A stretch of 64,000 bases of DNA from Eledone cirrhosa. Lineage: Eukaryota. A program made the translations under genes and the position numbers. The stretch spans positions 330,832,001 to 330,896,000 of the forward strand of contig OZ024740.1 of assembly GCA_964016885.1 (NCBI GenBank). Reading direction: 5' to 3'. Every line of letters starts with the position of its first letter. Position 1 is the first letter of the stretch. This document shows, in pieces, positions 51,146-61,033 of the stretch. Below the pieces are notes generated by a model. It searched no databases. It was not told where the DNA came from and saw only the letters and a program-made list of their open reading frames with translations.

Positions 51146-51283
51146 TCATTATTTCTGAAGACAGCATATATATGTGTAGGTATGTATATTCCCTCTGATA
51201 GTTTGTAAAAATTTTACATAGATCTATATGATATACATACCAACACACACATATATATCCTAGAAACGATCGTAAAATGATGA
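51146..51283 (+). ncRNA. Type I hammerhead ribozyme (H5) with ~100-nt stem II
   Basis: 9-bp stem I tcattattt/aaatgatga, CTGAAGA, long paired stem II, GAAA, palindromic stem III ACGATCGT, GTA site. Confidence 0.8.
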
Positions 51284-57200: not shown

Positions 57201-57312
57201 TGCTTACAAGTGTTTCCACGGTGGTACTGCAGCCTAGTTCCGCTACGTGCAAATTCACAAGTATATGCAGAACTCGAATATCCAATGCTGTGACCACTGT
57301 TTCCTCAGAGCA
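57201..57312 (-). ncRNA. Hammerhead (H7) in the downstream pLTR
   Basis: Copy of 60673-60784. Confidence 0.7.
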
Positions 57313-57810: not shown

Positions 57811-59860
57811 TTATTTTATAGTGAGAGAATTTAGCTTTAGTTTGTGGTTGCAGTATAATGATCGTTCAATTCTATCGTTAAGTAGTTTGTTTTTGGATTT
57901 TAGTATGTAAAATAGCTCAAGGTTACATAACCTGCAGTACTTCAAACCACTCCGATATGCATTTGCGCTGGAAAGTATATCCCATTTTAAGGTGAACTGT
58001 TGGTTGTGTTCACGGAGTTGCCAGGTCTTGTTGGCGAGCGTGGTCACAAAACGGTGATTCTGATGTTTGATTGAGAATCGATGACGGTACCAGCGAGATT
58101 TAAACGATGTGGTGGTAGATCCGATATAATACCATTTCTGGTCGTCCGATTCAACCGTGCATTGGTAAACAATGTTGGACTTTAGGCATTCATTCTGCAA
58201 TGGACATCTTTCAGGTAGATGGCAGTTACATGCTTTGTTGTAGGTAGCGGGTATACCATGGATAGGTTGTGATAGCGGTACAGGTGGGTTGTGCAATACC
58301 CGTCTCCCATTTAGTGGTTGGGAGGCAGATATTGCGTTCTGCCCATCTGTTACTAAAATGCTTTGTTTTGTAGAGTTGTTTAATTGCCTTAAGTTAAGTT
58401 TTTTTATGTATGCTTCAAGGTTTGGTGCCGTGGAGTATGATAGTCTAATAGTTTTGGAGTTCAGAATTTTGCTGTACTTATGGGAACTAGGGAAGTGTTT
58501 ATTGATTAATTTAAAGAATGAAAGAGATAGTTTTGTACTAATCGAGGCATTAAAAATAGGATTATACCAGATATACTTTCTACAACGTGATTTATTTGGT
58601 GGTGATCTTCTATTATTAGTATGTCTGGTAGTATAGTGTGTGTGTGCTTGTGTTTTAGTCCCCCGGTTACGTATACCTTGATTACGTGTAGAGCTATGTG
58701 TGTTGTGGAAATTACTATCGATGTATTCTATTGTATCCCGGTGGTCAGCATTCCTTAATGCATTATTGTAGTATTCAGCATGTTCGCTAAAAATATCAGA
58801 GTTAGACGATAGGCGAGAGATTCTAAGAGAAATACTCCGGGGAACTGATTTGATCATGGAGAGTGGGTGGTTAGAGTTTAAGTCAATATACGTAAGGTTC
58901 TCATTTACCTTGTGGAAGGGTCGTATCTGTCCGGTATTTAAATTAAGAGTTACGTCCAGAAAGTTTACTACCTTAAGATTGTATTCGTATGTTATTTTTA
59001 GGCCCAGTTCACTAAAAGATTTTCTAATATTTTTCCGTAGCCTTTCAAGATTTTGGTTATTCAAGTTATTAACTAATAAGAGCCCGTCATCTCTATATAT
59101 CCCCCCCCCCCTGTAGATTACTAAATCTACTATGTAATATGTGGGCTATGTAAATTCCCACGAGATCCGTGACCTCCGCCGAGTCGTTGGAACCCATGGT
59201 AATATCGAAACTTGTGGGTCTGTCCTTACGTTCCCAGTAGCAGTTATCGAACTTAATAATGGTTTTTCTAGCCTCGAGAATAATATTAATTTCGTCCTCC
59301 GTTAGGTCGGAATTGGCCTTAGCAAACGATAGGGCCTTACGTAAAGTGCTTGGTGAGATGGAAGAGTAGTATTCGTCTATGTCAAATTGTATAAACTTAG
59401 ATTTATTCTTATTCTTAACATTATTAAACCAGCGAATTGCTTCGCTAGTGTTGCCCCATAATTTAATTTCAATTTTCTTTTTCACTTGAGTTATTACTCT
59501 GTCAAGTATATGTTTACTAATTTTCCCTATGTCTGATTTAGAAGGGCATATAAGTCTGATCTTAGGGTTAGAATCAAAATTTACCTTATGGTCCTTCAGG
59601 TTGAAGGTGGGGGTAGCGGGTATAATCGGCTCGGTTCTATCGTCTATCTTGAGATGCTTTACCACTTTGTATGCCTCGTTGTTAATATTTGCTAGCGTAG
59701 TTTCATTTTTTTTTCTATATTTTTTGTGTAGTTCGTTGCGTATGAAGTTATTATACGTATCGATATCCATGGTATACACGTTAGAAGTCTTGTCAGCTTT
59801 CACAACAATTCCATTGGTATTTTGCAATCTTCGGAGTAGTGCTTTCATGTTGTTCTGCAG
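57811..59860 (-). pseudogene. PLE RT-GIY-YIG polyprotein, N-truncated, with one frameshift at a C11 run (59101-59111)
   Basis: KADK, IRLICP, FDIDEYYSSI, MGSNDSAEV, IYRDDGLL across the frameshift, NFLDVTL, CNCHLPERCPLQNECL, NIVY..YIG, CRLCNLE. Confidence 0.9.
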
Positions 59861-59886
59861 CTCATAACAAGGTAGTTTATTCCGTG

Positions 59887-59998
59887 TGCTTACAAGTGTT
59901 TCCACGGTGGTACTGCAGCCTAGTTCCGCTACGTGCAAATTCACAAGTATTTGCAGAACTCGAATATCCAATGCAGTGACCACTGTTTCCTCAGAGCA
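59887..59998 (-). ncRNA. Hammerhead (H7) in the upstream pLTR
   Basis: Copy of 60673-60784. Confidence 0.7.
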
Positions 59999-60672
59999 GA
60001 ATGGTAAATATACAATGTAAAAACCCTTAAGTGGGGTTGTTGGGGAAGATAGAGTGGAACAGGAAGAGAGAAAAGTGGGGAAGAAGGAGAGAGAAGGAAA
60101 GATATGCAGGGGTTGGAGAAGTAGGAGAGAGTGGCTTATAGATATCTTAATCAAAATGTTATGGTAGGGGTTTTAATAGTTACTTTTGGAGAGATGCGTA
60201 GATAGTTGAGGTCGGAATTATTTATTGCCCCAGAGGTCAGGTTCATAGATGTTGAGAGGGAGGTAGGTCAAAGGTGAGAGAGAGAGTGTAATGGATGTAG
60301 AGAGAGATATATAGGTAGAGAGGGGACAGATAAAGTATATGTGGTGAGTGAACTTTTGGTTTTGTAGTAGTAATCTAGGAATTGTACTGAGTTACCATGT
60401 ATAGTGATAAGCAGTGTATTGTCTTGTAGTGTGGGGGAGAAGAGAAGGTTGTTAGCTAGAAAGTGGTGTTGTAGTTACGGGTTCGAATGTTAAGTTATTT
60501 TATAGTGAGAGAATTTAGCTTTTAGTTTGTGGTTGCAGTATAATGATCGTTCAATTCTATCGTTAAGTAGTTTCCTTCTCTCTCCTTCTTCCCCACTTTT
60601 CTCTCTTCCTGTTCCACTCTATCTTCCCTAACAACCCCACTTAAAGGTTTTTACATTGTATATTTACCATTC

Positions 60673-60784
60673 TGCTCTGAGGAAACAGTGGTCACAGCAT
60701 TGGATATTCGAGTTCTGCAAATACTTGTGAATTTGCACGTAGCGGAACTAGGCTGCAGTACCACCGTGGAAACACTTGTAAGCA
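60673..60784 (+). ncRNA. Type I hammerhead (H7) with 85-nt stem II region, in the inverted pLTR
   Basis: tgct CTGAGGA a acagtggt...accaccgt g GAAA c actt GTA agca; inner helices gttctgc/gcggaac and tgcaaat/atttgca. Confidence 0.72.
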
Positions 60785-60976
60785 CACGGAATAAACTACC
60801 TTTTTATGATGTCTACCTGTTATTATTCATTCTTTATATACACTCCGGAATACTGAAGGATCAGGAACTAAGTTTCTTGAACAATTCTTCCATAACTCGT
60901 AGAGTAACCTCTTACCGTACGTCAACCATATCCAGTGTAGTAATTAACCATCACTACATCTTGGATAATCCTATAC

Positions 60977-61033
<57 letters not shown>

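What the first reader, a model, noticed from the sequence alone, without database searches (positions are those of the whole stretch)
60673..60784. Second PLE family with an 85-nt structured stem II hammerhead, in three copies
CTGAGGA and GAAACACTTGTA are bridged by nested helices (acagtggt/accaccgt, gttctgc/gcggaac, tgcaaat/atttgca) whose sequence is unrelated to the H5 insert. Both ORF-bearing PLEs in the window therefore have long-stem-II HHRs, which suggests a lineage-wide class. Several HHRs here also show a non-canonical first stem II pair (A-G, C-A, U-U).
Basis: partly seen in the sequence, partly recalled or inferred. Interest (0 to 1): 0.75.

Follow-up and report, generated by a model that had tools for sequence, protein, structure and literature searches.

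The report
Long-armed hammerhead of Hydra-clade retrotransposons
A young jumping-gene family in this animal genome carries a hammerhead self-cutting-RNA motif whose second arm is 85 bases long instead of the 10-26 seen in relatives elsewhere; sister families keep an arm of similar length and predicted shape, which likely serves as a protein handle controlling when the RNA cuts, but cutting is untested.

Summary
Confirmed: three copies of a type I hammerhead core with an 85-nt stem II lie in the terminal repeats of one Penelope-like element of the Hydra clade (RWK, DKT, CxCx5C, TA-repeat targets). The family has at least 1,370 copies. Added here: an A-G internal-loop motif recurs in the arm (24 of 30 representatives, post hoc), also in the H5-type arm. 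All sampled 3' ends lie downstream of the cut site, so templates are uncut or religated; junctions at the cut site are weakly enriched (p 0.01-0.11). No RNA data. This scan reported the same class before in this and other genomes. New variant of a known kind.

The parts
60677..60780 (+). Hammerhead copy 1 (the finding): core, 85-nt stem II (60684-60768), GAAA, 3-bp stem III with 2-nt loop, predicted cut after 60780; lies in the inverted arm of the insertion
60673..60784 (+). Stem I strands, 4 bp (60673-76 with 60781-84)
   Evidence: pairs kept in 97.6% of cells over 21 family copies
60685..60767 (+). Stem II arm: P1 60685-92/60760-67; P2 60695-98/60752-55; loop motif M1 60699-701/60749-51 (placed by eye); irregular P3 60707-10/60743-46; loop motif M2 60711-13/60740-42; P4 60716-22/60731-37
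   Evidence: predicted, not probed
60571..60980 (+). Inverted 3' end of the element, ending in the long (+200) terminus at the TA repeat
59863..60570 (-). 5'-truncated upstream repeat (end of endonuclease, 3' UTR, hammerhead) forming the upstream pLTR; joined at 59863/59862 to the ORF body with 495 nt missing relative to full-length copies
59891..59994 (-). Hammerhead copy 2 (upstream pLTR)
57811..59862 (-). Hydra-clade RT plus GIY-YIG ORF, lacking its first ~90 codons and frameshifted in a G run near 59101-59111
57205..57308 (-). Hammerhead copy 3 (downstream pLTR), about 500 nt after the stop codon
57151..57204 (-). Sequence after the cut site with AATAAA at +9, ending in the short (+54) terminus at the TA repeat
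51155..51274 (+).

Best explanation
This is a type I hammerhead motif in the terminal repeat of a young, high-copy Hydra-clade Penelope-like retrotransposon, and its 85-nt stem II is an inherited arm predicted to fold as an irregular hairpin that likely binds a protein and so keeps cutting slow and conditional. Shown: identity of the element, position of the motif, copy number, arm lengths, the clade, and that inserted copies end downstream of the cut site with the motif intact. Inferred step 1: the arm is kept for its shape (closed base, terminal helix, A-G internal loops), not its letters. Inferred step 2: stem III is too weak for a monomer, so cutting would need two copies or protein help, as reported for other PLE hammerheads. 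Inferred step 3: the element's own RT-endonuclease (or a host RNA-binding protein) would bind the arm, favour the hammerhead fold over the competing fold and release unit-length RNA from read-through transcripts only part of the time, since reverse transcription starts 54 or 200 nt downstream of the cut site and needs uncut or religated RNA.
For: Hydra-clade motifs in the intact 774-aa ORF of L181. Tree: families with 79-91-nt arms form one clade, 100/99. Their arms are not alignable to this one by local alignment, yet length and layout persist: in A2 (21 arms of 78-83 nt) the named structure is paired in 77.6% of cells against 30-45% for slid registers, 7 of 18 pairs change on both sides. Base of the arm is closed in the predicted fold in 29 of 30 family representatives against 5-33% of shuffles; 20 of 30 have z of -2 or lower; sense folds better than antisense in 22 of 30. 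Loop motif in 13 of 13 representatives of the 78-91-nt group, 4 of 4 of the 101-116-nt group, 4 of 5 of the 58-62-nt group; 2-41% in shuffles. Within this family P1, P2/M1 and P4 stay 94-99% paired and one pair switches U-A to C-G. Outside relatives have 10-25 nt (51 of 51 hammerheads in 77 loci). 58 of 60 sampled copies end at +50-60 or about +200; 12 of 30 ORF-bearing copies read through the upstream cut site. Junctions starting at the cut site: 9 of 16 hits, against 1-3 of 22, 3 of 7 and 4 of 11 at three control offsets. A Poseidon-clade PLE hammerhead cleaves only with its protein (PMC11167929, section 3).
Against: No RNA, cleavage or binding data. RNAalifold predicted no consensus pairs on either alignment. 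A covariance model built from the 78-83-nt arms does not find this family. Within this family the arm is not more conserved than the adjacent UTR (69/83 against 107/119 and 373/433) and variable columns do not avoid paired positions significantly (6/48 against 9/37, p 0.25); P3 is only 70% paired. This family's arm folds better antisense. The hammerhead fold is not the lowest-energy fold in any of 32 tested sequences (median gap 5.7). The loop descriptor was written after looking at these sequences and is absent in 6 of 30. Junction enrichment is weak (p 0.012-0.107), 2 of the 9 are explained by stem I microhomology, and 0 of 30 ORF-bearing copies start at the site. [quoted passage not shown] Short-armed families thrive in the same genome.
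Confidence: 0.5

Rival explanations
1. Tolerated growth: the ribozyme needs only a closed base of stem II; arms lengthen by slippage and small duplications and are kept merely because unpaired sequence would disturb the core. The extension has no function of its own.
For: Lengths form a near continuum from 11 to 116 nt; long arms occur in several unrelated clades with unalignable sequence; the 116-nt arm holds a visible short duplication; no excess conservation within this family; short arms work elsewhere.
Against: Length stays within 78-91 nt across a clade whose proteins differ by about 35% and whose UTR spacing varies from 420 to 950 nt; two near-invariant AG strands sit in unpaired loops, which plain hairpin upkeep does not predict.
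Confidence: 0.3
2. RNA-only accelerator: an internal loop of the arm replaces the usual loop II contact with stem I, or pairs two ribozymes, giving fast cleavage without protein.
For: Loop II-stem I contacts drive fast hammerheads (PMC3088659, passages); stem I can extend beyond a bulge in constrained folds.
Against: The first conserved loop lies about 12 pairs from the core; genomic copies show mostly uncut templates; stem III self-duplex is weak here (-1.1 kcal/mol against -6.4 and -10 for sister loops).
Confidence: 0.12
3. The motif no longer cleaves, and the arm acts as something else (promoter sequence in the pLTR DNA, antisense structure, SECIS or tRNA-like insert).
For: Competing fold predicted for this copy; antisense folds better.
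Against: The catalytic core is invariant across 28 aligned sequences of about ten families while the arm diverges; no Rfam match at E up to 10, no tRNA, intact ORF has no in-frame stop.
Confidence: 0.08

Closest known systems
Hammerheads of Hydra-clade PLEs (Craig et al. 2021, PMC8557442; passages, section 11, supplement parts 1-2 with Files S1, S2 read)
   Same: Same clade markers, TA-repeat targets, type I core near the 3' end, 3-4 bp stem III with tiny loop, often U-U at the base of stem II
   Different: Published rows have 12-26 nt between the core halves (my count, 26 rows); here 85, and 47-116 in sister families
Minimal type I hammerheads of metazoan PLEs (Cervera and De la Pena 2014, PMC4209133; parts 1-2 of 4 read)
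   Same: In pLTRs, short stem I, extra base before stem II, weak palindromic stem III, dimer-type design, low activity
   Different: Helix II there is 6-8 bp; no long arm with internal loops is described in the parts read
PAc Poseidon element of Anolis (PMC11167929; section 3 and passages read)
   Same: Internal RT start sites downstream of the hammerhead, two 3' ends, uncut RNA as template
   Different: Other clade; hammerhead overlaps the ORF start there, here it lies 252 nt upstream; tail 146 nt here against 30-40; protein assistance shown there, only inferred here
PLE-X1 hammerheads of Selaginella (File S2 of PMC8557442)
   Same: Long stem II region (about 53 nt in PLE-X1_sMoe), marked as deviating
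   Different: Unrelated Chlamys-type elements, shorter, no clade-wide analysis

Membership tests
Type I hammerhead ribozyme | CUGANGA, GAAA and UH core in type I order | tested here: met
   invariant in 28 aligned sequences
Type I hammerhead ribozyme | Stems I, II, III can close the junction | tested here: met
   4 bp, 7 of 8 bp, 3 bp
Type I hammerhead ribozyme | Hammerhead fold is the favoured fold | tested here: not met
   5.7, 3.2 and 4.2 kcal/mol above the lowest fold for the three copies; tertiary contacts, dimers and protein are not modelled; short-armed controls were not computed
Type I hammerhead ribozyme | Match to an Rfam hammerhead model | tested here: not met
   none of the window's hammerheads, short ones included, was matched, so the test has no power here
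Type I hammerhead ribozyme | Self-cleavage at the UH site | not testable with these tools
   no RNA holder listed; genomic junction test inconclusive
Hydra-clade PLE | Single ORF, RT with C-terminal GIY-YIG | tested here: met
   L181; Pfam gave no hit, so by alignment and motifs
Hydra-clade PLE | RWK and DKT motifs | tested here: met
Hydra-clade PLE | CxCx5C linker, CxxC and CxH, no CCHH | tested here: met
Hydra-clade PLE | Insertion into TA repeats; pLTRs, inverted 5' arm, optional tail | tested here: met
Hydra-clade PLE | Groups with named Hydra references in a tree | not tested
   the published proteins were not available as tree input; the tree used unnamed homologues
SECIS element | SECIS model match and in-frame UGA in the ORF | tested here: not met
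Non-LTR retrozyme | Short non-coding tandem monomer | tested here: not met
   unit is 3,181 nt with an ORF

The most novel reading that the evidence does not exclude
The arm is a distinct RNA domain grafted on the hammerhead, built from repeated A-G internal loops, that the telomerase-like RT recognises to choose its own RNA and to switch the ribozyme on: a natural protein-gated hammerhead, shared or re-invented by several retrotransposon clades in one animal lineage.
Probability: 0.25. Interest if true: 0.8.

Novelty: new variant of a known kind. Interest (0 to 1): 0.5.

Why it matters
The role of hammerheads in Penelope-like elements is stated as unclear in PMC8557442. A natural series of arms from 11 to 116 nt on one scaffold, with intact ORFs for several families, allows direct tests of whether the element's protein gates the ribozyme and where it binds. 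Tens of thousands of such motifs in one genome are missed by Rfam and would be missed by short-spacer descriptors, so hammerhead counts in animals may be too low.

Tried and rejected
Rfam on the window and on 60500-60960: no relevant match. tRNA scan: none. RNAalifold on A1 and A2: no pairs. Model R1: no hit to this family, weak hits to the 90a family at E 0.2-0.6. Coding or intron role of the arm: in this window the arm is in frame with the RT only because 495 nt are missing; full-length copies start the ORF 252 nt downstream. Sequencing runs: no RNA holder listed; contigs laid gave no information on ends. Pfam: no family. Close outside homologues: none, best 33-42%. The 31-59-nt count is inflated: 17 distinct hits clustering with L151 are an RT coding repeat with no stem I, so reversed-pattern controls do not guard against repeats that match by chance. 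Kink-turn, loop E and hairpin-ribozyme loops were considered for the A-G motif from memory and did not fit; not tested by a tool. Circular template: both pLTRs of an insertion share variants but only one variant was private, so not decisive. A search by sequence of earlier findings gave nothing.

Full report
Observation. The window holds three copies of a type I hammerhead core with 85 nt between CTGAGGA and GAAA: +60677..60780, -59994..59891 and -57308..57205. The arm alone folds at z -1.47, its reverse complement at -2.36; the lowest-energy fold of 60655-60800 is not a hammerhead. Rfam finds nothing here and there is no tRNA.

The element. The copies belong to one insertion between TA repeats: an inverted 3' end, a truncated upstream repeat, an ORF body and a downstream repeat. 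This copy lacks 495 nt and has a frameshift; full-length copies exist, for example L181 with a 774-aa ORF and two hammerheads 3,181 nt apart. The protein has RWK, DKT, CxCx5C, CxxC and CxH and no CCHH, the markers of the Hydra clade (PMC8557442, section 11). The best outside proteins listed are 33-42% identical. A family pattern gives 1,370 matches against 0 reversed. The organism was not determined; the genome is 3.0 Gb.

Is the long arm lineage-wide? Genome pattern counts against reversed controls: spacer 60-90 nt, 12,749 against 82 with a stricter stem III; 91-120 nt, 19,745 against 1,018; 6-30 nt, 12,586 against 1,398; 31-59 nt, 14,482 against 2,597, inflated by an RT coding repeat without stem I. 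These are pattern matches, not validated ribozymes. Fetched loci fall into families with arms of 11-14, 20, 25-36, 47-52, 57-63, 78-83, 85-86, 88-92, 94-98 and 101-116 nt. A tree of 28 own-genome ORFs or fragments, each labelled by the nearest downstream hammerhead, plus 15 of the 120 listed outside proteins, puts the 79, 83, 85, 90a, 90b and 91 families in one clade (100/99); the 101-116, the 94-98 and the 60-61c families are separate clades whose mutual order is open; the 11-nt family lies outside. Fourteen rows are under half filled, the 79 row is a decayed fragment, and a few labels may belong to nested elements. Outside this genome, 51 of 77 metagenome loci with Hydra-type ORFs gave a hammerhead, all with 10-25 nt although spacers up to about 130 were allowed. 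The 26 Hydra rows of File S2 have 12-26 nt by my count; the longest arm in that table, about 53 nt, is in an unrelated Selaginella element.

Is the arm a conserved structure? For: on a plain MAFFT alignment of 21 arms of 78-83 nt a structure I named by eye is paired in 77.6% of 371 cells against 30-45% for slid registers, with 7 of 18 pairs changed on both sides; it beats 500 of 500 shuffles on three measures and not on two, and relatedness can inflate this. Over 30 family representatives the predicted fold closes the base of the arm in 29 (shuffles 5-33%), 20 have z of -2 or lower, and 22 fold better on the sense strand; the RT false positive does not close. The descriptor is post hoc. Against: RNAalifold gave no pairs; a model of the 78-83 arms misses this family; P3 is 70% paired; within the family the arm is not more conserved than the UTR and variation does not significantly avoid pairs. 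Homology of this arm to the 78-83 arms thus rests on the protein tree, position, length and motif layout.

Does it cut? Not shown. The hammerhead fold lies 5.7, 3.2 and 4.2 kcal/mol above the lowest fold in the three copies, median 5.7 over 32 sequences. Stem III has 3 bp and a 2-nt loop, the dimer-type design of PMC4209133 (parts 1-2), though its self-duplex is weak here. Of 60 sampled copies 33 end at +50-60 and 25 near +200 from the cut site, so templates were uncut or religated; of 30 ORF-bearing copies 12 read through the upstream site and none starts at it. Prompted by an earlier scan note, I counted junctions: 9 of 16 hits start at the site, against 1-3 of 22 (+4), 3 of 7 (-9) and 4 of 11 (-21); p 0.012-0.107 depending on ambiguous cases, two of which are stem I microhomology. 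This is a hint only. No RNA run was listed.

Mechanism. Best reading (0.5): a slow, conditional hammerhead whose arm is a protein handle. The analogy is PAc, whose hammerhead cleaves only with its protein, but whose insertion needs neither cleavage nor the start of stem II (PMC11167929), which cuts both ways. The docking reading was also given by earlier scan notes; I tested the structure, not binding. Rivals: tolerated growth (0.3), RNA-only accelerator (0.12), dead core with other use (0.08).

Literature. Six searches listed no paper on long stem II hammerheads in PLEs; most subscription papers are not searched, and a 2017 paper on dimeric PLE hammerhead variants that I recall was not seen. 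I read: PMC4209133 parts 1-2 of 4; PMC8557442 passages, section 11, supplement parts 1-2 of 59; PMC11167929 section 3; passages of PMC3088659 and PMC7229834; part 1 of 5 of bioRxiv 10.64898/2026.07.22.740005. Unread supplements of these may show long arms. A mismatched base of stem II is published.

Verdict. Real, correctly identified, a member by sequence of a known class, with an arm length and clade-wide layout I did not find described: new variant of a known kind, interest 0.5.

Noticed in passing
window 57151 and 60980; L003-L030, L271-L300: The family has two sharp 3' ends, +54 and +200 from the cut site; in 12 of 12 two-armed insertions one arm has the short and the other the long end. 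The 146-nt tail is much longer than the 30-40 bp published.
   Followed up: partly
window 60790-60795 and many families: AATAAA follows the cut site within about 5-12 nt in many families, short- and long-armed.
   Followed up: no
L253, L254, L255, L259, L260, L263, L267 (about 900-1000 nt after the ORF): A Hydra-type family with intact ORFs has CAGAAGA instead of CTGAAGA in a short-armed core; L256 differs again.
   Followed up: no
L191, L261, L269: A Hydra-type family has a U3-A8 type core (TTGATAA) followed by a hairpin of about 54 nt; stem I and III not resolved.
   Followed up: no
L201, L202: The 116-nt-arm family has an intact ORF of about 813 aa and a 3' UTR of 3.5-3.8 kb.
   Followed up: partly
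window +49104, +56247, +56536, -46140, -36604, -24529: Further hammerhead-like motifs with arms of 14, 12, 47, 50, 31 and 13 nt.
   Followed up: partly
L151 and similar loci: An RT coding repeat matches the hammerhead pattern with a 54-nt spacer but has no stem I: a false positive with thousands of copies likely.
   Followed up: yes
window 59101-59111; L182: The G run just before the RT catalytic motif is frameshifted in this copy and in L182, a likely slippage hot spot.
   Followed up: no
L181, L360-L363, window: Both pLTRs of one insertion share variants that differ between insertions, as expected if both come from one template unit or from homogeneous masters.
   Followed up: partly
window 2-22400: Several decayed non-LTR retrotransposon ORFs in two duplicated blocks about 16 kb apart; types judged by eye only.
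   Followed up: no
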